From IMG/VR virus record IMGVR_UViG_3300048919_000175, positions 11,900 through 75,899 of that record: a stretch of 64,000 nucleotides of DNA; one strand, 5' to 3'. Position 1 is the first letter of the stretch. Each line of letters starts with the position of its first letter. The translations under genes and the position numbers were made by a program. Source of the DNA: a virus. The notes beneath the pieces were generated by a model. It was not told the DNA's origin, did no database searches, and was given only the letters and a program-made list of their open reading frames with translations. This document shows positions 2,779 to 62,300 of the stretch, piece by piece.

Positions 2779-3965
2779 TGGCCGAAGCCTGTTACAAAGA
2801 CCCTTATCTTCCGGCCAGCTATAAGGGCGTCCCGTTCGAAGCGCTGGAAGTCAATAGCCAGCACGGGCGGCGCGGCGCTGAGGGCGAGTTCCCGTTTGGC
2901 GAGGAGACTGCTTATGCTGATATGGGCAGATCAATACGTACTTATTCTATTAGCGGTCGTTTTGCTACTAACGATCATGTTCTCCGTGCGGCAGCTCTGA
3001 TCGCAGTTGTGGAGCTGCCCGGACCGGGTCCGCTTGTGCATCCTACGCGCGGCGTGATCATGGCGGCATGCAAGCAGCTCCGCGTGCGCGACAATCCCAC
3101 CGAGGAGCAGGGCGTCACTTATTTCGACATGGACATGGTCGAGGCAAACGTCTGGCCTAACGGTTTGAGCCTAGTCGGCTTCGTCTTGGGGCTCGCACTC
3201 GCTCCGCTTATCGAGGGACTAAATGACAGTTTCGATGAACAGTATCATCCGGAAGAGGCTACGTTCTATGACCGTGGCGCTGTCCTTGGGACTGCATCAA
3301 CCTCCGTTAATTCGATTTACACCGGCTATGTCCAAGCCGCCAAGAACGAGAATAACATCAAGGTTTATCGGTCATTCGCGGCGTTCCAGACCCTTTCTTC
3401 TGATCCTGGACTACTCGCGAAACCGAACACAATGAAGCAAGCCATGTCTGACGGGATGGCACTCATTGACAAGTATGGTACGAGCGTTCAGAAGCAGCAG
3501 CTATTCCGGGAAATTATCAACCAGAATGGCGGCTCCATCTTGGTTGGACGTACCGGCAGAGCCTCCGTTAACGCAGTGCAGAGCTACACTCGCCTGCTTG
3601 CGGCTGGCTACATGGCCAAGGCATTCCTTGAAGTCACGCCAGCCGACATGAACGAAGCCTTCACGCAATATGATCGCGTCGTCGCCGTGTTTGAGGAAGA
3701 ACTGAAGATCATTAACGAGGCATGCGACAGCAAGTTGTATGTCCGCCTTTCCCGGTTCTTTGAGGACCTGAAAGGCAAGTTGCTAAATCGCGCCTACAAC
3801 TCGCCGCCGCTGATCGCATTTCAGTTTGGCTCGGCAGTACCGTCAGTCGTCGCTGCGTACGAAATCTATACGGACGCCACACAGTTCCTCGATCTTGAGA
3901 AGAAGAACCCGTATGGCTTCCCGTGGATGATCGGACCAACCGTAATTGGAGCGCGACCGAATTGA
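2778..3965 (+). CDS. Mu gpN-like DNA circularization / tail tube initiator protein
   Basis: N-terminal ASYKGVPF...GRR...EFPF...DMGRSIRTYSISG and GPGPLVHPTRG motifs typical of the DNA_circ_N family. Confidence 0.8.
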   Translation: MAEACYKDPYLPASYKGVPFEALEVNSQHGRRGAEGEFPFGEETAYADMGRSIRTYSISGRFATNDHVLRAAALIAVVELPGPGPLVHPTRGVIMAACKQLRVRDNPTEEQGVTYFDMDMVEANVWPNGLSLVGFVLGLALAPLIEGLNDSFDEQYHPEEATFYDRGAVLGTASTSVNSIYTGYVQAAKNENNIKVYRSFAAFQTLSSDPGLLAKPNTMKQAMSDGMALIDKYGTSVQKQQLFREIINQNGGSILVGRTGRASVNAVQSYTRLLAAGYMAKAFLEVTPADMNEAFTQYDRVVAVFEEELKIINEACDSKLYVRLSRFFEDLKGKLLNRAYNSPPLIAFQFGSAVPSVVAAYEIYTDATQFLDLEKKNPYGFPWMIGPTVIGARPN

Positions 3966-5197
3966 AGCCGGTAGTGATCTTAATTGACGGACAGGAGCTG
4001 ACCCAATACACGGGCATGAAATTGTCGCGCCAGAAGAAAGATCTCACCGGTTCTTTCAGCGCTGAAGTATTCTTCAACTACATGCCCTCCAAGCCGGTCC
4101 TCGTCAACGCGATGCGCAGCAAGCCAGTGACCGTCTATATCGGCGGGCAGCTCGCTTTCTTTGGGTCGATGGACCGCCGCAAAGGCAAAAGCGAGACCAA
4201 GGAAGACAGCCTAACAGAAGTCACCTCTTCGATAGAGCCGAATGCATATTCGGTATCGTTGAGCGCTCGCGGTCGGACCAAGGTCCTGATCGACAGTTCG
4301 CATCAGCACAAAACCGGGACCATCCTTCAGCCTTCCACTCGGCAGGCAGTGGAGGCCCTCACCAAGGATTTCAAGGTCGAGCTGGACTGGCAGTCAGATG
4401 ACGTCAAGCTCGAACGAGTTTGCTTCAGAGATGGCTGCAATGTTCTATACGAGCTTCAACGCCTTGGCAACGAAAACGGTCACTACTTCTATGAAACGCG
4501 GGATGGCAAGCTCCGCTTTCAGGACGCCCCGGCCGAGTTCGGCGACGATCTTATTCTTGGCAAGAATGTTCTCTCGTTCTCAGCGGACCAGTCCGACGAT
4601 CACGACAAGTCGCGCATTGTGGTTAAAGGTCAGCGCACTAAGCGGACTGTTTGGGGCGAAGAAGCCGCGCTGAATGTCCTCAAGTCAGCCAAGAAAAATA
4701 AGGACGGCGACGATACTCCGTACATCGTCCAGCACTACGGAGACGCCACTCCGGAAGCGCTCGATCGTCGCGTACAGTTCGAGGCTGACAAGCGCAATGC
4801 GCAGTCGCTCCAGTGCACTGTCGAAGTGTTCCATGTCATGACGCCATCGGGCGATCCGTGGGATATCGGCAAGCTTCATTACGTTGAAATTCCGCCGGAA
4901 GGTATCTTCAATGTCCTGGAGTGCATCGCCCTGGACTATACCGTTGACGCCCAAGGCACACTGAAAACAACATTGACGCTAGCGCCGCCTCCGCAGAAGA
5001 AGGATGCAGCCCCGAGCGAGAAGGCTGGTATCGGGAAGCAACGGAAGGCCCAACTTGGGGTCAATTCTCCGGACATCTGGCAACCTTCTGATCTCGACTT
5101 CTCGCCTAGCTTCTCTGAAGCGCCCGTGGTACAACAGCCTGACTTCCTTGGTGGCATTCAGATTAACCAGCCGCCGCTCAAACTTCCATCAACCTAG
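3962..5197 (+). CDS. Baseplate hub (Mu gp44/gpP-like)
   Basis: Synteny and size; motifs ETRDGKL, LILGKNVLS, SRIVVKGQ. TTG start overlapping the upstream stop is inferred. Confidence 0.75.
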   Translation: MKPVVILIDGQELTQYTGMKLSRQKKDLTGSFSAEVFFNYMPSKPVLVNAMRSKPVTVYIGGQLAFFGSMDRRKGKSETKEDSLTEVTSSIEPNAYSVSLSARGRTKVLIDSSHQHKTGTILQPSTRQAVEALTKDFKVELDWQSDDVKLERVCFRDGCNVLYELQRLGNENGHYFYETRDGKLRFQDAPAEFGDDLILGKNVLSFSADQSDDHDKSRIVVKGQRTKRTVWGEEAALNVLKSAKKNKDGDDTPYIVQHYGDATPEALDRRVQFEADKRNAQSLQCTVEVFHVMTPSGDPWDIGKLHYVEIPPEGIFNVLECIALDYTVDAQGTLKTTLTLAPPPQKKDAAPSEKAGIGKQRKAQLGVNSPDIWQPSDLDFSPSFSEAPVVQQPDFLGGIQINQPPLKLPST

Positions 5198-5722: not shown

Positions 5723-6262
5723 ATGGCCGAGTGCGTCATCCCAATCGAAGGCCGTCGCCGCATCTTCTGGACGACCCAGATCGATGCTTGCGGCGTCAAA
5801 CAAGAATGCCAGTCCGATTGCGGCTCCTCTGGCCTCAAGCTGCTATCCAAGCCGGGCGGTCGTACGTTCGCCAACAACAATTTCGTGACCGGCCTCGCAC
5901 TGAATATCCTACTGACCAAAGGTCGCAAGGCAGACAGCTTTTGTGGCTTCCGTCCGGGTGCGCGCGGCGGGCATTGGGCCGACACTTTCCGGGACGACAA
6001 CCAGACCTCCGGCTCTGCCCTTTGGGATTTGCCGACGCAGTATTCCGTAGCCGAAAGCATCAAGCTTGTTAAGGCATTGATGCAATCTGCGCTGCAGAAA
6101 CTCGTGGTCTATGGCGTTGCTCTGAGTGTCGAAGTTACTGTAACATACGCTGGCGGCAACACCTTTAACGCTGTCGTTGACATTCAAGGTAGCGACGGAA
6201 ATAACTCGCGCGTCGGCATTACCGGCAGTCGCTTGGAAAATTCCTGGGTCTGGAGATCGTAA
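5723..6262 (+). CDS. Baseplate wedge protein (Mu gp46-like)
   Basis: RGGHWADTF...GSALW...ALQKLV motif of the gp46 family. Confidence 0.75.
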   Translation: MAECVIPIEGRRRIFWTTQIDACGVKQECQSDCGSSGLKLLSKPGGRTFANNNFVTGLALNILLTKGRKADSFCGFRPGARGGHWADTFRDDNQTSGSALWDLPTQYSVAESIKLVKALMQSALQKLVVYGVALSVEVTVTYAGGNTFNAVVDIQGSDGNNSRVGITGSRLENSWVWRS

Positions 6263-26746: not shown

Positions 26747-26765
26747 TAAACTACCTTGCATTTTA
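26747..26765 (+). promoter_or_regulatory. 19-bp quasi-palindromic operator/promoter element (copy 1 of 5)
   Basis: TAAACTACCTTGCATTTTA; contains -35-like TTGCAT. Confidence 0.6.
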
Positions 26766-30309: not shown

Positions 30310-30618
30310 ATGGACACGAAAGCAAACGCTTATGCAGTTTTGGAACTGTGCCAGAATGATCCAAACTACAGCAATATGTCGCTGGACACGGACATTTCCC
30401 GGCACATCCGGAACCACATGGGCATTGTTGATTGGCCTACTTGGCGACCGCTCTACGAGCATATCGGCTTCACAGATGAGCAGGGCCGCGAGCTGTGGTA
30501 TCTGCTAGACGATGAGGAGCTTTCCAAGGAGAACGCGCTGTTCCAGTTCGAACGAATGATCGAACAGCAGCACGGTACTCTTGAAGGCATGTTCCCTGTT
30601 GCAAGGAGACTTCTGTGA
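30310..30618 (+). CDS. Hypothetical protein
   Basis: ORF after the promoter, AGGAAGG RBS. Confidence 0.55.
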   Translation: MDTKANAYAVLELCQNDPNYSNMSLDTDISRHIRNHMGIVDWPTWRPLYEHIGFTDEQGRELWYLLDDEELSKENALFQFERMIEQQHGTLEGMFPVARRLL

Positions 30619-30944
30619 GCAAGGGTGGCGTTAAGCCGATCTATAAAAAGCCCTTTGATAGGCAGACTATTACCCGCGTACTGACTTGTCGGAACAAGGG
30701 AATGCAGCCCAAGGAGATCGCATACGAGCTTAACCTAAAGCAGCATGCGGTCTATCAAATCTTGAAGGACGCGGGCCGACCGGCCTCTGGCCGTGGTGCC
30801 AAGCTGGTTGACCGTATCAACGCAAGGCTCGACGCCGATTGCGCAGAGCGCGTTCGCCAGTATTGCGCGCGCGAGAACAAATCAATAACCGTGGCTCTGA
30901 ACGATTTCATCAGAGCTGCCCCCAAAGAGGTCATGCGAGCATGA
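30615..30944 (+). CDS. HTH DNA-binding protein (possible C-terminal ribbon-helix-helix)
   Basis: GMQPKEIAYELNLKQHAVYQIL. Confidence 0.65.
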   Translation: MSKGGVKPIYKKPFDRQTITRVLTCRNKGMQPKEIAYELNLKQHAVYQILKDAGRPASGRGAKLVDRINARLDADCAERVRQYCARENKSITVALNDFIRAAPKEVMRA

Positions 30945-31092
30945 TGATCGCTATCTTCAACAACTTGCCCGAGATGCTCCTTGGGATTGTCTATACCTAC
31001 ACGGTCTTCCGTGTGGGCCGCTGGTCAGCAAATCGCTGGCCTTCTAAGAAAACCGTAGCTTGACCGGTTAAGTCAAGGAATTCAACAGGAGA

Positions 31093-31572
31093 ATGAATAT
31101 GTTTGGTTTTGGTAAGAAGAAATCGATCCTTGGCGCGGCTGCATCGGCTGCCTTCAAGGAAATGAATGCCGGTCAGCAGGAGAACCTTGACTTCCTGGAA
31201 GCCGCTGCTTCTGGCACGGCACTGGTCGCTACGGTCGACGGCAATGCTGACAGCGCCGAGCGCAACAAGGCGATCTCGGTGATCACCAAGAACAAGATAC
31301 TCGGCCCGATCTTCAGCCAGCAGCAGGTCGAGGGCATGGTCAATGCCTACATCGACAAGGCTTCCGACAGCGCCGGTAAGAACGAACTGGTCAACGAGCT
31401 CAAGGACCTGAAGAACCACGAGAAGGGCGGCGAGTACGCCAAGCAGGTCTATCTGATGGCGAAGGACGTTGCCAATGCCGACGGCGGTATCGGCGACCGT
31501 GAGCAGAAGGCGCTGGACATCCTCGCCGGTATCCTCGGCGTCAATCCGCAGGACTTCGCGTTCGACTTCTGA
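31093..31572 (+). CDS. TerB-like (tellurite resistance family) protein
   Basis: LEAAASGTALVATVDG.ADSAER...VANADGGIG..EQ.AL..LA..LGV. Confidence 0.8.
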   Translation: MNMFGFGKKKSILGAAASAAFKEMNAGQQENLDFLEAAASGTALVATVDGNADSAERNKAISVITKNKILGPIFSQQQVEGMVNAYIDKASDSAGKNELVNELKDLKNHEKGGEYAKQVYLMAKDVANADGGIGDREQKALDILAGILGVNPQDFAFDF

Positions 31573-47814: not shown

Positions 47815-48110
47815 TACTTTCTCCTGTTACGTTCTCGTAGTTCTTGGTAGTAAGCATATCGCCCGGTCTGGTCGCGCTTGGGCTTTGGCGTGCCCTTAAT
47901 GCGCTTGTTGACCATGCTTACGGTATCCGCAACGCTATCACGAATTTCCACGTTCCACTTGCGCATCTGCTGGTAGCGCGGCCATACGTCGTCAGGCGCG
48001 CCGGTCACGGCTAGAAGGGCATGCCGGGCTGTTGCCGTCCGCCATGACTGGAGGGCATCCAGCACGTCTTGGTAGGCGTTTTCCATGGCATCAAAATCGT
48101 CTTGGCTCAC
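47814..48110 (-). CDS. Hypothetical protein
   Basis: GGGAG RBS, GTG start. Confidence 0.5.
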   Translation of the reverse strand: MSQDDFDAMENAYQDVLDALQSWRTATARHALLAVTGAPDDVWPRYQQMRKWNVEIRDSVADTVSMVNKRIKGTPKPKRDQTGRYAYYQELRERNRRK

Positions 48111-49010
48111 TGATTATCTCCCATGGCCCGTGGGCCTTTTGGTATGGTTTTGTGGCGAGTTCACATTGGACAGCTTGTATTTTGTGAGGCCGCTGGCAAA
48201 TTATTACAATATTAATAACCTAGTAGCAAGGCGGAAGACCATGGGCTAGTTGTAAGTCATTGCATTGATAATGGGCAAAGGTTGGGTTTGTAAGGAAAGT
48301 AAACCAAGGTGCATGGATGGCTGTTTTGCGACCTTGGCCCATTGGCCCCAACAAAAACAAGGAGTTGCGGAGCGAAATGTAGATCACAAAGCATTACCGT
48401 TTATATACTTGCTTTGTTATGAGGCTGTAAAATTTTTTTAGCCATTAGGAATTAATTATTATAAAAAGTAGTAGTTAAAATAGTAGTATAGGACAAACCA
48501 AGGTCGTGAGCGGTAATGGTTTGTACTTGCCGCACGCCCGGCATTTCCGAATTCTACTGTCGCGGCTGGCCAATATACGATTTTCCAGACCCGCTTAGAG
48601 AACTGCCTGTTTTGGGAATTTGGTTTAACCTTTCGTCGCTGAGGCCGGTAGGCTGGCCAATACTTGGGCGGCACCCGCACCTCTCCCTCTCATTCTCGGC
48701 ATTTAGACGACCGTCCTTTTGTACATACTGACTAAAACATGTACTTAGTACACTTTTGCCCTGCACCATGGGCCTAGCGCCCTGCACCTTGCCAGCCTAG
48801 ACATGCGCACACTGCCACAGAGACAGTCAAGGAGCGCAATGGGCCATGGCCCTAGTACCATGCACCCGCCAGCGTGCTAACGCGCTGTACGGCCTGCTCC
48901 GTGGCAAACAAACATTCAAGGAACGCTATGTAGTTCCATAATGCATGTTATGCAACAACAGCAAAAGCTAATATAACCCCTGCCGCTGGCCCTCGGCACC
49001 CTAGACATGC

Positions 49011-49026
49011 TTAACAGATCGTTAAC
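49011..49026 (+). promoter_or_regulatory. CtrA box
   Basis: TTAA-CAGATCG-TTAAC. Confidence 0.65.
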
Positions 49027-49220
49027 GCATACAATTTAATTAAAATGCCACCAAATCGATCTACTCCTAGCGACGATCTAGTGCCCCGCTGCGTCGCGTC
49101 TCCGTGTCTTTTAAATTCCACCAGAATTCTTTTCAACGAAAGGTTGTACGTTTTAAAACCATGCCGGTTGGGAATTGGCCATGGACGATTTGCAGAAAAC
49201 AGTTTTCCAATTTCCATGGT

Positions 49221-49258
49221 AAAAACACCTTGTATTTTAGCCAGTCCTCCCTTATACC
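49221..49258 (+). promoter_or_regulatory. Operator copy 4 + sigma70-like promoter upstream of the Y-RNA-like gene
   Basis: AAAAACACCTTGTATTTTA; TTGTAT-N17-TATACC. Confidence 0.6.
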
Positions 49259-49370
49259 TACCCCATGCGCCATGGGCGATCGGAGAAGGCACCGGGCCGA
49301 CAGCCCGTGCGATGGTATCCTTTCGTTTGTCAAACTTGGCGCTAACTCGATGGCCCGCCGAATAAAGCGA

Positions 49371-49493
49371 TAGCCATCACATGACGAAGTGCGATATGCG
49401 AAGGTCGGCGGTTCGAGCCCGCCCATGCCCGGAAGGCCGTGTAATCTCAGCTGGTAGAGGGTCACATACCGCACGTGCCGTCTGCAGCGGCTA
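49371..49493 (+). ncRNA. YrlA/Y-RNA-like circularly permuted tRNA mimic
   Basis: GACGAAG motif, long stem, AGGTC, T-arm GGCGG-TTCGAGC-CCGCC, acceptor stem closed by GGAA, D-arm TCTC-AGCTGGTA-GAGG. Confidence 0.8.
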
Positions 49494-49501
49494 GTCTCTC
49501 A

Positions 49502-49533
49502 AGGCCCATGGCAACCGGAGCCATGGGCCTTTT
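49502..49533 (+). terminator. Rho-independent terminator of the Y-RNA-like gene
   Basis: AGGCCCATGGC-N7-GCCATGGGCCT-TTT. Confidence 0.8.
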
Positions 49534-49561
49534 GCATTTACAGAACGATCAGGAGCAAACA

Positions 49562-49948
49562 ATGAGCGATAACTACCAAGCAATCTACGACGCAGTGCGA
49601 TCGAGGTTCAGCAATGTCGACGCCAACCAGATCATTCGCGAGCATGTCTCCATGCTGACCAACTCTGCCGGTCATGCCCTCGACATGGCCCGAGCCAATT
49701 TCGATAGCATGCTAGGGGAGCATCAGCGCCCTTCTGTGCTTTATCGGCCAACGCTGACGCAAGACGGCGATCACTGGCTCGCGATCTATGGTGATTTGCA
49801 ATCCGGCGTCGTTGGGGCCGGTCGCACTCCCGCTCAAGCCATGCAGGCGTTCGATCAAGCTTGGCACAAGCCCGCCGTGGCACCACCCAAGCTAAAGCCG
49901 AACAACTGGCGCGCTCCGCCTCCGCCGAAAGAAAGTTTCATACCATGA
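49562..49948 (+). CDS. Hypothetical protein
   Basis: AGGAG RBS; GVVGAGRTPAQAMQAFD. Confidence 0.65.
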   Translation: MSDNYQAIYDAVRSRFSNVDANQIIREHVSMLTNSAGHALDMARANFDSMLGEHQRPSVLYRPTLTQDGDHWLAIYGDLQSGVVGAGRTPAQAMQAFDQAWHKPAVAPPKLKPNNWRAPPPPKESFIP

Positions 49949-50503
49949 ACATGGACTATAACACACTAGGCGAGCTCGGCGCGGCAGGCTTCATGATTGG
50001 AGTGTTCCTGTTGTTCCTCCTATTCGCAATTTTCAAGTACGGACCTTAATTATGCCGATGAACGAAGACGAGCTTTACACTCTACTGGAAAAGTACATCC
50101 GCTGGGTCTATCTCTGCGAAGGCACAACATTCATCCACGACCACGGCTCAGAAGAATACTTCTCCAAGGAAGAGCTTGAACAGCTACTTCATTTCTACAA
50201 GAAGCTCAGGGAAGAGTAGCATGGACGCATTTACGATCATAACGCTTATAATCGGCTTGCTCTTGGACTGCATCATCATTGCCGCCTATTTAAAGTCGAA
50301 GCTGTGAAGGACATCCAATGCCCCACTTCACATTCTGGATTATCTTTCTGCCGATGCTGGCGTTTTGGCTCGGGTGTCTCAAGGCCCGTCGCTCAAGTCG
50401 TCGGAGTGAGGATTGCGAGGACTAAGTCATGACACCGCTTAACCCCTGCCAGTTTCGTGAGGTTAAAGCTTGTCAAATAGCTGCGTGGCAGGTAGCATTC
50501 TGA

Positions 50504-50600
50504 GGCACACTGAAATGTTATCCCCTTCCTCCCGGAAGTTTGCATATTCATTGTTCTCCTGAATTAGCCCGCTGTCGTACCCCGGCAGCGGGTCTTTTAT
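50504..50600 (+). ncRNA. Candidate anti-Shine-Dalgarno small RNA (~95 nt)
   Basis: TTGTCA-N17-TAGCAT promoter (50470-50498), CU-rich loops, terminator 50568-50598. Confidence 0.6.
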
Positions 50601-50607
50601 TTTCCAC

Positions 50608-50636
50608 TTGCCTTTGGTAAAATACCTTGTAGTTTA
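50608..50636 (+). promoter_or_regulatory. Promoter/operator copy 5 upstream of the large ncRNA
   Basis: TTGCCT-N16-TAGTTT overlapped by TAAAATACCTTGTAGTTTA. Confidence 0.55.
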
Positions 50637-50640
50637 GGTT

Positions 50641-51185
50641 CCACTCGCTGCACTGCCTTTGGGGTTCACGGATCCCTCAGTCTTGCAGCCGCGCAGGTGG
50701 TGCAGCGAGCCAGTCGGCAGGGCTGGGAAGTTCAGGCGTGACCCGCGCCTCAGTTTAAAACCGCAAGGTCTGAAAGATGTTGACATCAGGGTGGAGATTT
50801 ACGAGGGCCTTCGGGCCGCTGTGACATGGTCTTACGGCTTGAGCCATGTCCGGGAAAAGAGCGAGCCGTCCCGCGACCGTGACTATCGGTGTTAGGAAGC
50901 GGGTTAGTTTCAGAGATGCGACGTAGGGCTACCAAACCATACCGAGCATAGTAGCAGGTCCGGTTCATTTTACAGGATGGACCGGACCTGTTCGTTTCAG
51001 CGGCGGATTTCCACTCTCCGCCGCGTGGTTGGTATGGCCTCGTCAGCTGGACCAACTGCCCCACCCTCCGTGCCGCATGGAGGGAAGTCGCCGTCCGGGC
51101 TACCGCCTTTGTCCGGGAAAGAAGGTTGGGTCCGATCCTCGTCGGGCGAGAGCGCTGAGCGACCAGCACCCAACCGCGCTCCACT
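50641..51185 (+). ncRNA. Large (~540 nt) highly structured RNA of unassigned family
   Basis: More than 12 helices incl. long-range pairings, GCAA and UUCG tetraloops, G-U-containing stems; no credible ORF. Confidence 0.7.
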
Positions 51186-51201
51186 ATTGATGAGGGACAA
51201 T

Positions 51202-51645
51202 GTGTCTGAGAATAATCTATGGCTTGAGCCGCAAATCACAACAGAACCAATCGAGGGAGCTGATAGATTTATCACATCCCGCCCGCCTGCAGTAGATGAT
51301 TTGGTCTATCAGGCGTATACTAGAGGATACGCCAAGCAGGGTCTTCAGGACGCCATGCTTGAATATCAAGTGTGTGGCCCGAGCTATTGGTTCGATGAAG
51401 CCACGTCGCTTAATGCGTGGACCGAGGAATACATCACGGCCCGGCGCGTAGAAGATTTCCGCAAGCAGTATATGCAGGAATGGCCGGACGATCGCCCATG
51501 GCGCGAGGCCGAACGCGAATTCACGCGCATGATCGAGGGCGGCTACACGCGGACCCAAATCCGCAAGATTTTCCTGAATTACTATCCAACAATGACCAAC
51601 GTCGATGTCAATCGGATGCTGGCCAAATACGAGGAGGCCAAGTGA
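51202..51645 (+). CDS. Hypothetical protein
   Basis: GAGGGA RBS, GTG start inferred. Confidence 0.5.
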   Translation: MSENNLWLEPQITTEPIEGADRFITSRPPAVDDLVYQAYTRGYAKQGLQDAMLEYQVCGPSYWFDEATSLNAWTEEYITARRVEDFRKQYMQEWPDDRPWREAEREFTRMIEGGYTRTQIRKIFLNYYPTMTNVDVNRMLAKYEEAK

Positions 51646-51763
51646 TCAGGTACGTTATCAACAAGCGCGTTGGCGGCGGGATCATCATTCGCTGGACCCC
51701 GGCCACGTTCGGCGGCTGGCATAGCCGGTTCTGGCTGATCAACAGCCTAGAGGAATGGAGCGC

Positions 51764-53095: not shown

Positions 53096-53665
53096 GTGGA
53101 CGACGTATCAACTATTGGTCTCAAAGACATCTTTGAAGCAGGCACCGCCATCGAAGTCAAGTTCGATGAGGGGCTGGCACGCCAATTTCTTGCGTACCTC
53201 GTCGACGGTATGTCCGAAAAGAACGCCATTGCTCAGGTAGATGGCCTCACCAGCTATCGGGTCAAGCAGTGGCGCGTCAGTCTCGAGCGCTTCGAGCAGA
53301 TGTATCAGTTCGCGCTGCGCGAGCGCTCGTATGCGCAGCTGGACGAAATCCTGGAAATTGCCGAAGACGCCACCGATGACGCCGTCATGGGCGCTACCGG
53401 TCCGACGATCAACGGCAAGGCCATCCGCCGCGCCGAACTGCAGATCAACGTCCGCAAATGGATGATGGGCAAGATGCTGCCCAAGGTCTTCGGTGACAAG
53501 TCGCAGATGGAACTCACCGGCGCGGATGGCAAGGACCTTGCCCCGGCTACCATCAATATCGGTCTGATCCCGACCGGCTCCTTCATCTCGGAGGATGCCG
53601 CACGGCAGCAGAACGATGCACTGAGAGATGATGACGATGCCCCGCCAGCGTCGTCCGAAGGTTGA
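53096..53665 (+). CDS. Terminase small subunit
   Basis: DEILEIAED...RRAELQINVRKWMMGKMLPKVFGDK..ELTGADG (Sf6/P22-like TerS pattern). Confidence 0.85.
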   Translation: MDDVSTIGLKDIFEAGTAIEVKFDEGLARQFLAYLVDGMSEKNAIAQVDGLTSYRVKQWRVSLERFEQMYQFALRERSYAQLDEILEIAEDATDDAVMGATGPTINGKAIRRAELQINVRKWMMGKMLPKVFGDKSQMELTGADGKDLAPATINIGLIPTGSFISEDAARQQNDALRDDDDAPPASSEG

Positions 53666-54281: not shown

Positions 54282-54335
54282 GCTCGGGGCGTAATTGGCT
54301 GGCCCTTGCTCCGGGTCGATAATTTGGAGCGGGAT

Positions 54336-55985
54336 ATGGTAGCGATTGTCGGATGCAGACCGGTTTGTGAAGAGATCGAGCCGGTATCGCTACCGGGCAA
54401 CGACATGCCAGCCCCTCCCGGACCGTCCGGTAGCGGCAATAACATTCCCGACTTCGACCCTTCACAGAGCTATGACTTCCCAGAAGTCGTCGTGCACAAT
54501 GGCGTCATTTACCGAGCCTTGGGACCGATCGCCCCTGGACCATTTGACCCGGCCGATTGGGAAGCGCTGGACAATTCCGGCGGCGGCGCAACAGTCGTCA
54601 CAGAAGATACAGCGACCGCCACCATCGGCGGCGACGGCTCGGCCGGAGACCCACTGACCGTTGACGTCAATGTTCAGGCATTGACCAAGTGGGGCGCAGG
54701 GCAGCTCATCCACGTTGATGCAATTCGCGGTGTCGATGCGCTCACCCAAGATGCATCGATCTTCATGCCGTATCAGACGGTCGGCTTTGCGCTTGCGCAG
54801 GCGGAGACTTCTGACGTCATCCTGCTCGCGCCCGGCACCTATGTAGAAAACGTCGCATTTGTATCAGACGTCGTCGTGCAGGGCTTCGGCCCGAACGATG
54901 CCAACCCTGTGATCATTCGCGGTCATCACACGATCGGCGACGGCATTGCTCGCGTGCGGCTCAAGGACCTACAGCTAGTCGGCACGGCTGGAGCTCCGGC
55001 GCTGGTTGTCGCGAACTCGGCTGGATCGCATACGCTCGACAACGTCTCCATCAGCCATGCAGACGGACCAACGGCCACGGCTGTTCAGTTTACCGGCAAC
55101 AATCAGAGCTTCATGACGCTCAACGATGGTTCCATTGCCGGTGTCTTATCTCTGCAAGACCCGCTACAGGTCTCAGCGTTCGCGCTGATCTTGCGCGGTG
55201 GCTCAGAGCCAACGACAGTTCTGTTCAACAGCGCCCCGGTGCAGCTCTCTATCATCGATCACATCCGGCTCGGCAAGATCACGCACGGCGCTGGTCTGCT
55301 GTTGATCGACAGCATTGGCTATATCATCCAGAATGGCGGCGTCTCGCTCGTCTCGACCGCGAGCGCGGCCAATGGCGCACTGTTCATGAAGAACGTGACC
55401 ACTATCCAGCCGAACGGCAGCTATGGGGCGATCCAGAAGACCGGAACCGCCCCATATATGATGCTTGGGGTCAAGTCCGATCCGCTGGCTGCGGACTTTG
55501 CCGGGCTTAACTTGCTAGGAGATAATGCCAAGCATGTCCATGCTCAGTATCAGCCGGTCAACTACTTCCCGCTATCGGCTTCCGTGCGCGATCATTTAAA
55601 GGCGATCGATGAAGCGCTTCCGTTCAGCGCTGACGGGCGCACAGTCGTACATGAGATCGTGGTTTCGCGCCCCGGTCCAGTTCTGGAAGATCAAATAATC
55701 CTGGATTATGTTGCGTCGAAGCCGATCACGCTTAAAGCTAGTCTTCCCGACATTCAGTACAAGTTCCGTGGTACGGCAGGTCAATCGGTCACGCTCAACC
55801 TGTTCAGGAATGATGTTGCCATTGGTGACATTACGATCGACACAACTTCGATCAACATCAATTTCGCGGTTGATGTTGAGTTCCTCGTAGGAGACGTTTT
55901 CACTGTTTCCGCACTAGAGGATGCAGCATTTTCTAACGTAGCTTTGACGCTTCAGGGCTTGCGTCAACTGGACTTTGTAGCGTAG
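54336..55985 (+). CDS. Virion fibre protein (CBM-like N-terminus, pectin-lyase-like beta-helix)
   Basis: VVHNGVIYRA...W; PYQTV..AL..A...DVI.LAPGTYVE. Confidence 0.6.
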   Translation: MVAIVGCRPVCEEIEPVSLPGNDMPAPPGPSGSGNNIPDFDPSQSYDFPEVVVHNGVIYRALGPIAPGPFDPADWEALDNSGGGATVVTEDTATATIGGDGSAGDPLTVDVNVQALTKWGAGQLIHVDAIRGVDALTQDASIFMPYQTVGFALAQAETSDVILLAPGTYVENVAFVSDVVVQGFGPNDANPVIIRGHHTIGDGIARVRLKDLQLVGTAGAPALVVANSAGSHTLDNVSISHADGPTATAVQFTGNNQSFMTLNDGSIAGVLSLQDPLQVSAFALILRGGSEPTTVLFNSAPVQLSIIDHIRLGKITHGAGLLLIDSIGYIIQNGGVSLVSTASAANGALFMKNVTTIQPNGSYGAIQKTGTAPYMMLGVKSDPLAADFAGLNLLGDNAKHVHAQYQPVNYFPLSASVRDHLKAIDEALPFSADGRTVVHEIVVSRPGPVLEDQIILDYVASKPITLKASLPDIQYKFRGTAGQSVTLNLFRNDVAIGDITIDTTSININFAVDVEFLVGDVFTVSALEDAAFSNVALTLQGLRQLDFVA

Positions 55986-58408: not shown

Positions 58409-61285
58409 ATGGCCCTCCCATACATCGAGCGGACAGTTGCAGCGGCAGTAAGCGGCCTCAACTTTGTTGGCGCTGGTATCTCTGATAGCGAACAATGGGT
58501 CGCACTTGGTGCGAACTCCGGTACGAGCTACATGCTCAAGCGTAGCGCTGCGGGCAACTATGATACTGCTGTTGCGATTTCTGGTGCTACCGGGCAATGC
58601 CTTGATATCACATTTGCAAACGATATCAAGGCATACGGATCGATCGGCTCAAACTTCTATCGTTTTGATTACACTGCACCGGGCGGCGTCGACACGTGGA
58701 CGGCCACGGCGATACCTGTCCTGGGCGGACAGGCGGTACGCGGTGTCAGCATATCTCCTGACGGGCAGCACATTGCGTGTGCGTTCCTGACTGCGTTTGT
58801 AGTTTACGATATCGCTTCAAATTCGATCATCAAAAACGTAGCCTGGACCAGCGGCGAAGACGTCAAGTATTCGCCCGATGGCAAGTATGTCGCTGTTGTA
58901 GACCGATTTGCTGGCGTCAGCGTCTATCAGCGCGCCGGGGCTGTTTACACGCTCATGACAATCGTTGGTGGATCGACGCCGACGAAAGGAAGCTGGCAAC
59001 TCAGCTGGCATCGCAATAGTAAGCGGTTCGTGGCTTCCGCCAATTCGAGCGGCACTGGCGCATATATCTACGCGCTGACAAGTTCTACGGATTGGACACC
59101 AACTACACTTATCTCTACCCCGGCGTCTGTCGCCGCTCTCTACACTTATTCTGGTGCTGATCTCGTAAACTTTTCGCCGGTCAGCACAGCCGCGCCGCAC
59201 GTTTTTCAGGACGACGTCACGTCCGTAACCGAACGACTTGATTTTTCGGTACTAGCTCAGCCGACTGGCGGATGCGGCGCAGGGGCCTCCCCCAAAACGG
59301 GTCTCGGTCGGACGGTTGTTCTGGCCGGTGTAACGAGTGGTGCGCGTATCTTCACGGCTCCTCTTGCGTTCAAGCAAAGAACTGTCACTGCTTCCCTGCC
59401 AGCGATCGAGTATTATGGCGTTGCTGTTTCTCCGGACGGTAAGTACGTTGCTTGCTGCCCGTCGACCGCAACCACGACCGTTAAAATTTTGGTCCGCAAC
59501 GACACGACCGGCGATTATGACAGCATGCAGACCGTTACCGGACTGCCGCTGGCGTCTAGTGCGATCGTTGACGCAGTGTTCGGTCCTAACTCCGACACTC
59601 TCTATGTGCCTGTCAATGACAAAGTTCATAGATGCACGCTCGTTGGTGGCGTCTGGACTTACGAAAAACAGTTTGCGGTCACACATGGCGGAGCAAACGG
59701 CATTGATATCGACAAGGATGAGCGTATCCTTTTGATCGGTGCCGCGAGCGGTGGGGCCACACTATGGAACGTGGTCAGCGACACGCTTGTCCAGAACATC
59801 GCTATCGCCGACACGATCCAGGACGCCAAATTTTCTTCTGATGGTCGCTACGCCGCCCTCGCCTGCCAGAGCCTCGGTCTGCGCGTTTACGATCGCGGGA
59901 CGCCACTTACCGACGTTTTCACCAGTATGCCGGTCACTGGTGGCGGCGCTGCCGTGGCCAATTGGGCTGTTCAGTTCAATGAAGCTGGCAATCGTATTAT
60001 TTCCGGCTCGATCTTCTCTGGTAATGCTTCCAGCGGCTTTACGCTCGATCCTACAGGTACGCCGACTTGGGTCGGTCAGACGTTGCAGGCTGCTCATAAC
60101 TCAGTCGGCGCTACTTACATCCTCGGCAAATATCCGTTCACGACCTCTAATAGTTCGGTAGTGCCTGACAATTGGGCCGACCCTAACTTCGTAGCTGACA
60201 AGAACAGTTTGCCCGCGATGGCGACGCACGCCTCCCGCGCCGGTCGCGGCACCGGCAATGGCTCTGGTGTCTTCGCCTTTGCCAGAACTTCCGGTAGCGG
60301 CGGCGGCGTGGTCATTTATACGGTTGACGTACCTGCTCCGGGCACTCTCGATCTTGCCGCAAGCTTCACTATGCCGATAATCGGTATGCTGGCAGAGCTT
60401 GGGGCCGAAGCCTCTATCGACGGCGAGTTCACTATCGCATTGATTGGCATGGACGGCATTCTTGCAAATGCTAACGGCGACATTGTCCCTGCTCTGCCGC
60501 AAGTGTTCCGAGCTCCGGCTATCGCGCTAGAAGCGGAAATGCTTACGGAAGAAACCGAATTCTTGCCGCTAGCACAGATCGAGTTCACCTATGGTGCGTA
60601 CTCGATGTTGCTCAATGCCGGTCTGTACGAGAATGCAGAAATCGAGTTCACCTATGGTGCGTACTCGATGGAAATCTTGGAAGGCATCAAGGCAGAGATT
60701 GAATTCACTTATGGCGCTTATGCGCTAGAAGCCGAAATGGATAGCCGCAACGCAGCTCATATTGCATGGAGCTATGGCGCATATTCCATGGAGATTGAAG
60801 GCTTCCAGCCGATCGGCATGATGGTCAATTTCACCTATGGCGCATACTCGATCGAAATTGACGCCGACGCACAGTTCGGTGCCGCCCTGACGTTTGGTTA
60901 CGGCGCATACGGCATGGAGCTCGACGCCGACGTTTCTATGCCAGCAAATATCGAGTTTACATATGGTGCCTATGATATCGTTATGACGGGCACTTCGCCT
61001 GTTGCTACAGATATCGAGTTTACCTATGGTGCTTACGACATGTCTGCTTCCATGTCGCAACCGAATTCGATCATCTTCTCCTACGGTGCCTATTCGATGG
61101 CGGTCGTAGCTTCTACGCCCGTTGTCCTTGACGCTCGCTTGACGTATGGTCACTACGGCATGGCGCTCACTGGCACCATGATCAAGGAAGCTGAGATTAA
61201 GTTCAGCTACGGCGCTTACGGAATGGAAGTCGTAGGTGAAGTCGTATCGAATAATGCGCTTACATTTATGATCATTCAGCCGTGA
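58409..61285 (+). CDS. Double WD40 beta-propeller protein with 11 C-terminal YGAY repeats (fibre?)
   Basis: SPDG..VA blades; (I)EF(T/S)YGAY.M repeats at 60578-61225. Confidence 0.7.
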   Translation: MALPYIERTVAAAVSGLNFVGAGISDSEQWVALGANSGTSYMLKRSAAGNYDTAVAISGATGQCLDITFANDIKAYGSIGSNFYRFDYTAPGGVDTWTATAIPVLGGQAVRGVSISPDGQHIACAFLTAFVVYDIASNSIIKNVAWTSGEDVKYSPDGKYVAVVDRFAGVSVYQRAGAVYTLMTIVGGSTPTKGSWQLSWHRNSKRFVASANSSGTGAYIYALTSSTDWTPTTLISTPASVAALYTYSGADLVNFSPVSTAAPHVFQDDVTSVTERLDFSVLAQPTGGCGAGASPKTGLGRTVVLAGVTSGARIFTAPLAFKQRTVTASLPAIEYYGVAVSPDGKYVACCPSTATTTVKILVRNDTTGDYDSMQTVTGLPLASSAIVDAVFGPNSDTLYVPVNDKVHRCTLVGGVWTYEKQFAVTHGGANGIDIDKDERILLIGAASGGATLWNVVSDTLVQNIAIADTIQDAKFSSDGRYAALACQSLGLRVYDRGTPLTDVFTSMPVTGGGAAVANWAVQFNEAGNRIISGSIFSGNASSGFTLDPTGTPTWVGQTLQAAHNSVGATYILGKYPFTTSNSSVVPDNWADPNFVADKNSLPAMATHASRAGRGTGNGSGVFAFARTSGSGGGVVIYTVDVPAPGTLDLAASFTMPIIGMLAELGAEASIDGEFTIALIGMDGILANANGDIVPALPQVFRAPAIALEAEMLTEETEFLPLAQIEFTYGAYSMLLNAGLYENAEIEFTYGAYSMEILEGIKAEIEFTYGAYALEAEMDSRNAAHIAWSYGAYSMEIEGFQPIGMMVNFTYGAYSIEIDADAQFGAALTFGYGAYGMELDADVSMPANIEFTYGAYDIVMTGTSPVATDIEFTYGAYDMSASMSQPNSIIFSYGAYSMAVVASTPVVLDARLTYGHYGMALTGTMIKEAEIKFSYGAYGMEVVGEVVSNNALTFMIIQP

Positions 61286-61291
61286 GGCCCA

Positions 61292-62272
61292 ATGCCACAT
61301 CCATGGAACAATTCAATGGACCTTATGGTCCACCCGAGCAATCGACTTGTCGATGACGGGTTCATTGTTCTAGGGAATGGCATTCATCGCCCGGTTGGCG
61401 TGATACCTCCGGAAGTGACCGAAGCGGTCCGCTACTCAGGCCGTCGCTTAATGCGCGGTCTGGCAATGCGCCCGTTCACGGGTCTGCTCGTCGCAGGGAA
61501 CAAAGACCCCGGTCAACCGTTCCTATACAGCACCGACTTTGGGGCCAATTGGCAGGTCGGCGTTGCTAATCCGAATGAGGGGTATCCCGCATATGTGTTC
61601 TGGGTTCCGGTCTGGAACAAGTTTATCGCTATTATGGAGGAAGGCTCGCGCTCGTGCGTTAGCATTTCCGCAAATGGCATAAACTGGACACAATATCCTG
61701 CTCGCGGTAATGTCATGCGTAAGGCCACCGGCTTTGCCGTGAACTTGACCGGAAACAGGGGTATCATTTCCGTAGAAGGAGATGATTATAACATGTATGC
61801 CGCTGATGCTGGCGGCGTCAACTGGTCTGCATTTCTGACCGGCATGCCGGGCGGAAGCTCGGTAGTCTGGGACGGCATTAATGGCAGGTTCCTCGCGTTC
61901 ATTGGCGGCAGCAATAATTGCTTTCGATCCAGCAATGGATTGAGTTGGATTACTGCCCCTAATGGACCCGACGTTGTCCAAGGCACATGGGCGGCGTATA
62001 GTGTGCGTTTCGGAGGTCGGATAATCCTGTTCGGCTCCACAGAGAACGTACTATTCACCGACAATGGAGGCGCATCCTGGGAAGCAGGTTCTGGGTTATC
62101 AGAAAATACCTCACCTGATAATCGAATTGTTGCAATAAATGGCGATACCTTGTACGTTGCATACAAGTCTGATTACAACGCTGGCTCAATTAGCTACGAT
62201 GCAGGCGAAACGTGGACAGACTGTGCACACCAATCGGGTAAACCACTCGGCATTGCAGTCCTATTGCAGTGA
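61292..62272 (+). CDS. BNR/Asp-box beta-propeller protein
   Basis: STDFGANW, SANGINW, SSNGLSW, TDNGGASW, SYDAGETW. Confidence 0.7.
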   Translation: MPHPWNNSMDLMVHPSNRLVDDGFIVLGNGIHRPVGVIPPEVTEAVRYSGRRLMRGLAMRPFTGLLVAGNKDPGQPFLYSTDFGANWQVGVANPNEGYPAYVFWVPVWNKFIAIMEEGSRSCVSISANGINWTQYPARGNVMRKATGFAVNLTGNRGIISVEGDDYNMYAADAGGVNWSAFLTGMPGGSSVVWDGINGRFLAFIGGSNNCFRSSNGLSWITAPNGPDVVQGTWAAYSVRFGGRIILFGSTENVLFTDNGGASWEAGSGLSENTSPDNRIVAINGDTLYVAYKSDYNAGSISYDAGETWTDCAHQSGKPLGIAVLLQ

Positions 62273-62300
62273 TCGCCAAGACAACAAGGAACCTTCCCGC

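What the first reader, a model, noticed from the sequence alone, without database searches (positions are those of the whole stretch)
49200..51200. ncRNA island: three separately promoted RNAs, two sharing an operator
Within 2 kb lie the Y-RNA-like mimic (with extra 5' hairpins at 49274-49378), the anti-SD sRNA and the large structured RNA, interspersed with small ORFs, several of them hydrophobic. Two of the three promoters are overlapped by the same 19-bp operator, and a CtrA box sits at 49011. Large phage ncRNAs are often tRNA-adjacent; here the neighbour is a tRNA mimic. Inference: a co-regulated RNA-based host-takeover or anti-defence system.
Basis: inference. Interest (0 to 1): 0.8.

Follow-up and report, generated by a model that had tools for sequence, protein, structure and literature searches.

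The report
Phage late-operon control region with ncRNAs
The stretch is the gene-poor switch region ahead of the packaging genes of an alphaproteobacterial phage. It holds a tRNA-shaped Y-RNA look-alike, a small CU-rich RNA and a ~550-base folded RNA, but these do not travel together in related phages, so they are not one dedicated RNA system.

Summary
None has expression data.

- **Y-RNA look-alike (49381-49487).** It has the YrlA layout, but it scores far below Rfam's cut-off (23.9 against 69 bits). The complete 75.9-kb phage has no Ro60, vWA_Ro60 or RtcB gene.
- **Small CU-rich RNA (about 50505-50600).** It has a sigma-70-type promoter and a terminator. The promoter spacing and a CCUCC motif recur in three relatives that I found.
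- **Large region (about 50643-51185).** It has no conserved ORF. It folds far better than shuffles on the + strand only (z -5.4 against -1.1). Two relatives carry a comparably sized, structured, non-coding stretch, one in the same slot and one in the Y-RNA slot. Apart from short motifs, their sequences cannot be aligned, so homology and covariation are unproven.
- **The 19-bp palindrome.** It has five copies in the phage, and three of them precede protein operons. It is a phage-wide promoter/operator element, not an RNA-specific one.
- **Relatives.** The YrlA-like RNA is missing from both complete relatives. This meets the finding's own refutation criterion for a single "system".

My reading is a CtrA-linked late-operon control region that carries separate RNA units. 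Earlier notes of this scan report orphan YrlA-like RNAs in other phages; I did not check those notes. Interest is moderate and rests mainly on the large RNA.

The parts
49011..49026 (+). CtrA box (TTAA-N7-TTAAC) at the head of the rightward control region
   Evidence: 9 matches (6 distinct sites) in the window against 0.12 matches expected. Relatives R and S have CtrA boxes at the same place. This is a known trait of alphaproteobacterial phages (PMC9437464).
49030..49172 (+). Conserved non-coding block, probably the promoter-proximal leader of a CtrA-dependent rightward transcript
   Evidence: It is the only non-coding stretch here that blastn can align with relatives: 74% identity over 145 nt with S, and 67% over 120 nt with R (W 49010-49118).
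49203..49240 (+). Promoter/operator copy 4 (19-bp palindrome at 49221-49239)
   Evidence: 38 nt at 79% identity to 50600-50637. One of 5 copies in the phage, all on the + strand.
49246..49380 (+). Predicted 5' part of the Y transcript (hairpins seen in the MFE fold only)
   Evidence: hairpins are present, but z is -0.93, so structure here is not supported.
49381..49487 (+). Orphan YrlA-like RNA: Ro-type handle motif, variable loop, T arm, closed acceptor-like hairpin, D arm
   Evidence: RF02553, 23.9 bits, model positions 1-114. Features were read against PMC4201824 and against alphaproteobacterial YrlA loci.
49501..49541 (+). Intrinsic terminator T1 (12-bp stem plus a T run)
   Evidence: pair I13, 100% complementary.
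49562..50504 (+). Protein genes between the RNAs: a 128-aa ORF, then five small ORFs, three of them hydrophobic
   Evidence: No Pfam or PHROG family. By my reading of the sequence, small hydrophobic ORFs recur upstream of the 167-aa gene homologue in R, S and T.
50470..50498 (+). Sigma-70-type promoter of the small RNA
   Evidence: By my count, the -35 hexamer and the 17-nt spacer recur in R, S and T (sequences).
50505..50603 (+). Small CU-rich (anti-Shine-Dalgarno-like) RNA with terminator T2 (50567-50593)
   Evidence: 102 nt, z -4.99; terminator. R has the same build at L257 6115-6260 on the minus strand.
50600..50637 (+). Promoter/operator copy 5 (19-bp palindrome at 50618-50636; -35-like CTTGCC 17 nt before the -10-like hexamer)
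   Evidence: R and S have a palindrome of the same build before their large structured regions.
50643..51185 (+). Large structured non-coding RNA or leader. No terminator separates it from the next gene.
   Evidence: z -5.44 on + and -1.08 on -; its windows rank 1st and 4th of 271 for GC-corrected MFE. No ORF is conserved with R, and the ORFs have no credible Pfam family. No Rfam hit at E up to 10.
51202..51645 (+). First gene after the large RNA (unknown function). It probably starts at GTG 51202, behind a GAGGGA ribosome-binding site.
   Evidence: its single homologue, P0002 (62% identity), starts MSEK, against MSEN if the gene is read from 51202.

Best explanation
The stretch 49.0-51.2 kb is the gene-poor control region between the leftward early genes and the rightward packaging and virion genes of a complete 75.9-kb myovirus-like phage of an alphaproteobacterium. 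It holds three predicted non-coding units.

1. Operator-type promoter (49203-49240), then a ~290-nt RNA whose last 107 nt form an orphan YrlA-type tRNA mimic, then terminator T1.
2. A sigma-70-type promoter (50470-50498), then a ~95-nt CU-rich RNA, then terminator T2.
3. A second operator-type promoter (50600-50637), then a ~550-nt highly structured RNA that runs without a terminator into the gene at 51202 and on towards the small terminase.

The 19-bp palindrome belongs to a phage-wide promoter class. Five copies head five rightward units, three of them protein operons. The most likely binder is a phage-encoded dimeric DNA-binding protein that times these units.

Inferred functions:
- The Y-like RNA acts as a decoy or adaptor for a host Ro60/Rsr or for tRNA-binding enzymes.
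- The CU-rich RNA masks Shine-Dalgarno sequences. It would act in trans in W and R, and in cis as a 5' leader in S and T.
- The large RNA is a 5' leader of the late operon (transcript stability, processing or read-through control), or a stable RNA cut from it.

Shown: the sequence features, their copy numbers, and their presence or absence in relatives. Inferred: transcription, the binder, and all functions.
For: - **Phage context.** The record is complete with terminal repeats. It has baseplate, DnaE and primase genes and a small terminase at 53096.
- **CtrA boxes.** They are enriched about 75-fold. Large CtrA-rich intergenic gaps between divergent gene blocks are described for alphaproteobacterial phages (PMC9437464).
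- **YrlA features.**
- **Small RNA.** Promoter and terminator, z -4.99. R has the same build, and all four phages have a CCUCC motif behind a promoter with a 17-nt spacer.
- **Large RNA.** Strand-specific folding excess in W, in R (z -5.0 against -1.75) and more weakly in S (-3.55 against -2.5). W and R share an exact 16-mer hairpin in collinear position. R and S have a palindrome of the same build just upstream of their structured regions.
- **Operator.** Five + strand copies within 2 mismatches of the consensus. One copy and its downstream flank are conserved in R.
Against:
- The large RNAs of W, R, S and T cannot be aligned by blastn or nhmmer, so there is no covariation test, and their predicted folds differ.
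- A coding stretch at 60.9-62.3 kb has a GC-corrected folding excess almost as large.
- The Y element fails Rfam's gathering score, and its long stem is not the thermodynamic optimum.
- Only 20 of 201 sampled Hyphomicrobiales genomes carry a Ro60 vWA domain above the cut-off, so a host partner is not assured.
- The predicted TerB-like target of the small RNA is absent from R, which keeps the small RNA.
Confidence: 0.5

Rival explanations
1. One reading: the three RNAs form one co-regulated RNA-based host-takeover or anti-defence system.
For: The three units lie within 2 kb. Two share a 38-nt promoter/operator region. A tRNA mimic could in principle act as a decoy for host tRNA-directed enzymes.
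Against: YrlA is absent from the complete relatives R and S. The units differ in number and order between W, R, S and T. The operator also heads three protein operons. No partner protein or defence-related family was found among the neighbours.
Confidence: 0.12
2. The large region is not a functional RNA. It is a DNA-level element (packaging or replication site) or a fast-evolving spacer rich in hairpins. The 'small RNA' is only the 3' end and terminator of the small-ORF operon, or the antisense of a - strand 52-aa gene.
For: The large regions of W, R and S share no alignable sequence. The region lies about 2 kb upstream of the small terminase. The - strand ORF 50393-50551 has a perfect AGGAGA site at good spacing from its ATG. 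Another, coding, region folds almost as well.
Against: The folding excess is strand-specific in W and R, which points to selection on RNA rather than on DNA. The - strand ORF is not conserved in R. The promoter with 17-nt spacing ahead of the CU-rich segment recurs in four phages.
Confidence: 0.2
3. The YrlA-like element is a decayed or rearranged tRNA remnant with no Y-RNA function.
For: It scores 23.9 bits, far below the gathering score of 69. The YrlA model gives sub-threshold hits in 13 of 14 control genomes. The element is absent from relatives. Its handle stem has mismatches.
Against: The T arm, a closed acceptor-like hairpin and the D arm stand in permuted order, with G15:C48 and the GNCGAA-type handle motif at the expected place. 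It lies between a promoter-like site and a strong terminator. The phage has no tRNA gene from which a remnant could derive.
Confidence: 0.1

Closest known systems
YrlA, the tRNA-mimicking bacterial and phage Y RNA bound by Ro60/Rsr (Rfam RF02553; PMC4201824)
   Same: Permuted order of T arm, closed acceptor-like hairpin and D arm. G15:C48. A GNCGAA-type motif on the 5' strand of the handle. Ends in the position of the anticodon stem.
   Different: It scores 23.9 against 69 bits. It lacks the YUAY start of the variable region. About 135 nt of extra 5' sequence precede it if it is made from the operator promoter. The phage has no Ro60, vWA_Ro60 or RtcB gene, whereas the Rhizobium and Tropicibacter loci examined read Rsr-YrlA-RtcB.
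CtrA-box-rich intergenic gap regions of alphaproteobacterial phages (PMC9437464)
   Same: A gap of more than 1 kb between divergently transcribed blocks (48110-49560), with strongly enriched CtrA boxes that are also present in relatives.
   Different: As far as I read that paper, it does not describe structured RNAs or a palindromic phage operator in the gap.
Large ornate RNAs GOLLD and ROOL (Rfam; PMC12286853)
   Same: Several hundred nucleotides long, phage-borne, highly structured, function unknown.
   Different: No match to either Rfam model at E up to 10. No tRNA genes nearby. Only three or four divergent examples exist, with no proven common fold.
Anti-Shine-Dalgarno sRNAs of Rhizobiales (AbcR / alpha-r families; named from my own knowledge)
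   Same: A short terminated RNA with CU-rich motifs exposed in or near hairpin loops.
   Different: No Rfam family matches. The target is unknown. In S and T the motif lies in a 5' leader rather than in a separate RNA.
Lambda late control (pR' - 6S RNA - tR'; named from my own knowledge)
   Same: A promoter, a short non-coding transcript and a terminator placed ahead of the late and packaging genes.
   Different: No Q-like or NusG-like gene is present in W, R or S. This is an analogy of layout only.

Membership tests
YrlA (RF02553) | [quoted passage not shown] | tested here: met
   The motif is present at 49383-49389. The feature is defined in PMC4201824.
YrlA (RF02553) | tRNA-like T arm, then an acceptor-like stem-loop, then a D arm | tested here: met
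   alignment: T arm 49407-49423, hairpin 49424-49441 (one C-C mismatch), D arm 49445-49460.
YrlA (RF02553) | Levitt pair 15:48 can form | tested here: met
   G15 in the D loop and C48 at the end of the variable loop, read.
YrlA (RF02553) | Score at or above Rfam's gathering threshold (69 bits) | tested here: not met
   23.9 bits.
YrlA (RF02553) | Encoded within about 4 kb of a Ro60/Rsr gene on the same strand | tested here: not met
   The whole phage has no TROVE, vWA_Ro60, RtcB or Rhizobium Rsr homologue.
YrlA (RF02553) | Binds Rsr and carries tRNA-type modifications | not testable with these tools
   Needs pull-down and modification mapping.
GOLLD / ROOL | Match to the family covariance model | tested here: not met
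   No hit at E up to 10 in 48500-51700, and none at gathering score in the window.
GOLLD / ROOL | Usually next to tRNA genes | tested here: not met
   No tRNA gene in the window.
CtrA-box gap region of alphaproteobacterial phages (PMC9437464) | CtrA boxes enriched and concentrated in an intergenic gap between divergent blocks | tested here: met
   (9 matches against 0.12 expected; sites at 45.5-49.0 kb). R and S show the same.
Rfam anti-SD sRNA families (alpha-r, AbcR) | Match to a family model | tested here: not met
   One search lists no such family.
Candidate new large-RNA class (W, R, S, T) | Common secondary structure supported by covariation | tested here: inconclusive
   The sequences cannot be aligned. 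Only short shared motifs were found. The folds differ.

The most novel reading that the evidence does not exclude
The 550-700-nt structured, non-coding stretches of W, R and S (with a partial one in T) would be a new class of large phage RNA. Each follows a palindromic promoter/operator ahead of the packaging genes. The class would keep its fold and a few motifs while its sequence drifts, and would act as a stable RNA in late gene control or packaging.
Probability: 0.22. Interest if true: 0.7.

Novelty: new variant of a known kind. Interest (0 to 1): 0.45.

Why it matters
If transcripts are confirmed, this phage group would offer a compact case of three things. A host cell-cycle regulator (CtrA), a phage operator and three kinds of non-coding RNA would meet at the switch to late genes. 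A Y-RNA-type tRNA mimic would work without a phage Ro60. A large structured RNA unlike any curated family would be present. As it stands, the value is a corrected map of the region, three related phage sequences for comparison, and evidence that the RNAs are separable modules rather than one system.

Tried and rejected
The 14.6-kb Logan contig that encodes the only homologue of the gene after the large RNA (P0002) could therefore not be fetched.

**Searches that found nothing useful**
- blastn of the island against 50,697 GenBank phages: no match.
- Protein-anchored scans with the 151-aa protein alone or as alignment A1: nothing in IMG/VR or JGI metagenomes.
- The protein at 54306-55985, which I first took for the large terminase, is tail-fibre-like. 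Its kin are only about 30% identical.
- blastn of 50430-51200 against 401 Hyphomicrobiales genomes: chance-level hits only.
- nhmmer among the large RNAs of W, R, S and T: no cross hits.
- A scan of IMG/VR for the 16-mer shared by W and R gave more than 120 unrelated contigs plus R itself. That motif alone is not diagnostic.
- NusG-type antiterminator: none in W, R or S.

**Readings tested and rejected**
- Predicted pairing of the small RNA with the TerB-like gene start at 31086-31101: a 9+7-bp duplex is there. By my rough estimate, chance gives such a duplex about 0.02 times per genome. The gene is missing in R, so this is not a conserved target.
- Permuted tRNA-like elements in IMG/VR tRNA arrays: none of the 17 loci tested gave any YrlA hit at the gathering score.
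- ORFs inside the large region: none is similar between W and R. Pfam gave only one sub-threshold hit, to MBF1.

**Not attempted**
- I did not build covariance models. Single-sequence folds of the large RNAs disagree too much to give a trustworthy seed structure.

Full report
**Context.** The window is bases 11900-75899 of a 75,899-bp IMG/VR virus record with terminal repeats, rated complete. It encodes baseplate hub and wedge proteins, a DnaE-type polymerase, a primase, a helicase and an endolysin, and a small terminase at 53096-53665. The nearest GenBank phages infect Agrobacterium and Rhizobium. They share only about 25-33% amino-acid identity in single virion proteins. Perfect CtrA boxes are strongly enriched (9 matches at 6 distinct sites, against 0.12 matches expected), so the host is an alphaproteobacterium. 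The finding lies in and just after a 1.4-kb gap between leftward genes that end at 48110 and rightward genes that start at 49562. CtrA-rich gaps of this kind are described for alphaproteobacterial phages (PMC9437464).

**The Y-RNA look-alike.** Rfam finds nothing in the window at gathering score and ARAGORN finds no tRNA. At relaxed threshold the only notable hit is YrlA at 49381-49487. It aligns over the full model at 23.9 bits against a gathering score of 69 (E 0.057 in 3.2 kb; E 3e-4 for the phage). I read the element against the defining paper (PMC4201824). It has these features:
- the GNCGAA-type handle motif at 49383-49389;
- a five-base variable loop ending in C48;
- a canonical T arm;
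- an acceptor-like hairpin closed by a tetraloop, with one C-C mismatch;
- U8-A9;
- a D arm with G15 and G18-G19.

It lacks the YUAY start of the variable region, and its handle has mismatches. Thermodynamic folding does not recover the handle, but it does not recover the cloverleaf of a genuine Rhizobium YrlA either.

The alphaproteobacterial YrlA loci that I pulled from genomes have the same layout. The two I examined in detail, from Rhizobium and Tropicibacter, sit between an Rsr gene (vWA_Ro60 plus a weak TROVE match) and RtcB. The phage has no TROVE, vWA_Ro60 or RtcB gene and no homologue of the Rhizobium Rsr. The element is therefore an orphan, sub-threshold YrlA-like RNA. A host partner is possible but not assured: 20 of 201 sampled Hyphomicrobiales genomes carry the Ro60 vWA domain above the cut-off. 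Earlier notes of this scan report many orphan YrlA-like RNAs in other phages. I did not test those notes. They lower my estimate of the novelty of this part.

**The small RNA.** A TTGTCA-N17-TAGCAT site at 50470-50498 and a strong terminator at 50567-50593 bracket about 95 nt. The 102-nt stretch folds with z -4.99. It carries two CU-rich motifs, one in a hairpin loop. Two rival readings exist:
- a 24-aa ORF (50430-50504) overlaps the promoter;
- the - strand has a 52-aa ORF with a perfect ribosome-binding site, antisense to the second CU motif.

That gene is absent from relative R, which keeps the small RNA.

**The large RNA.** The stretch 50635-51200 has no credible ORF. It folds with z -5.44 on the + strand and -1.08 on the - strand. 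In a genome-wide scan of 560-nt windows corrected for G+C, its windows rank first and fourth of 271. A coding stretch at 60.9-62.3 kb comes close. No + strand terminator separates it from the next gene. That gene most likely starts at GTG 51202. No Rfam family matches at E up to 10.

**The operator.** The 19-bp palindrome (consensus TAAAATACCTTGTATTTTA) has five copies within 2 mismatches of the consensus, all on the + strand. They lie at 26747, 30249, 37144 (perfect), 49221 and 50618. The last two sit inside a 38-nt stretch shared at 79% identity. The first three precede protein operons. One of these operons includes an HTH-like 109-aa protein, with sub-threshold Pfam hits. The motif is therefore a general promoter/operator element of the phage.

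**Relatives.** A scan of IMG/VR for the perfect 19-mer found a 75,275-bp complete phage, R (G404). A scan with a small-terminase alignment added S (G409, 74,699 bp) and T, a 6.9-kb metagenome contig. blastn aligns only these parts: a 35-nt block (48922-48956, with R only), a conserved non-coding block just after the CtrA boxes (49010-49172), the 167-aa gene (with both R and S), and the terminase gene (with R).
- **R** has the W layout. It has a small RNA with a TTGTCA-N17 promoter, a CCUCCC motif and a terminator. Next comes a palindrome of the same build. Then comes a ~660-nt non-coding region with z -5.0 against -1.75 on the other strand. That region shares an exact 16-mer hairpin with W in collinear position.
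- **S** has one palindromic promoter directly after the conserved block. A ~700-nt structured region ending in a terminator follows (z -3.55 against -2.5). Then comes a CCUCC-bearing leader that runs into the next gene.
- **T** has a CCUCC-rich leader behind a TTGTCA-N17 promoter just before its terminase, and a NusG-domain gene.

Neither R nor S has any YrlA match. The inner bases of the palindrome differ between phages yet stay self-complementary. The large regions cannot be aligned by blastn or nhmmer, and their predicted folds differ. A common origin is therefore plausible but unproven.

**Reading.** The features are real, but they are modules of a late-operon control region and not a single RNA system. 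The CU-rich RNA unit is the best conserved: four phages keep the promoter spacing and the motif. A large structured RNA behind a palindromic promoter recurs in three phages, although its sequence is not conserved. The YrlA-like RNA is private to this phage. Co-regulation through the palindrome is likely, but it extends to protein operons. All functions remain inferred. 

Noticed in passing
window 49030-49172; L260:2677-2819; L259:6806-6925: This is the most conserved non-coding block of the region (74% identity with S). It starts right after the CtrA boxes with a shared ATCTACTCC start. It is possibly the leader of a CtrA-dependent rightward transcript.
   Followed up: partly
window 50618-50636; L257 about 6073-6090 (minus strand); L260 about 2885-2903: The inner bases of the promoter palindrome differ between W, R and S but remain self-complementary. 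This fits either co-evolving operator and repressor pairs or a hairpin-forming element.
   Followed up: partly
window 60900-62300 (+): This coding stretch (end of the 958-aa gene and the 326-aa gene) has a GC-corrected folding energy almost as extreme as the large RNA.
   Followed up: no
window 50393-50551 (-): A 52-aa ORF with a perfect AGGAGA site at good spacing lies antisense to the small RNA. Its start region resembles that of the TerB-like gene at 31093. It is not conserved in R.
   Followed up: partly
L267:2270-3028: The distant relative T encodes a NusG-domain protein (61 bits) directly before a CCUCC-rich leader and the small terminase. W, R and S have none.
   Followed up: partly
window 30615-30944: A 109-aa protein with weak helix-turn-helix matches lies in the operon behind operator copy 2. 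It is a candidate binder of the palindrome.
   Followed up: no
L259:7166-7255 and L260 about 3070-3085: R and S carry a GACGAATG motif near where W has its Y handle, but no T or D arms. The R stretch can form a bulged stem, but its z-score is 0. A Y-type handle with a swapped module is possible but unsupported.
   Followed up: partly
L157:3176-4783; L146:4776-6473: The Pfam TROVE model barely detects alphaproteobacterial Rsr proteins (24-29 bits), while vWA_Ro60 detects them clearly. TROVE alone is a weak probe for Ro60 in this group.
   Followed up: yes
L018, L028, L032, L062, L090, L094 and others (IMG/VR): Closed-acceptor, permuted tRNA-like elements sit inside the tRNA arrays of large phages. 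None gave a YrlA hit at the gathering score.
   Followed up: partly
window 49945-50425; L257 5223-5408 (-); L260 about 4190-4265; L267 about 1675-1820: Small hydrophobic ORFs recur just upstream of the conserved 167-aa gene in all four phages.
   Followed up: no
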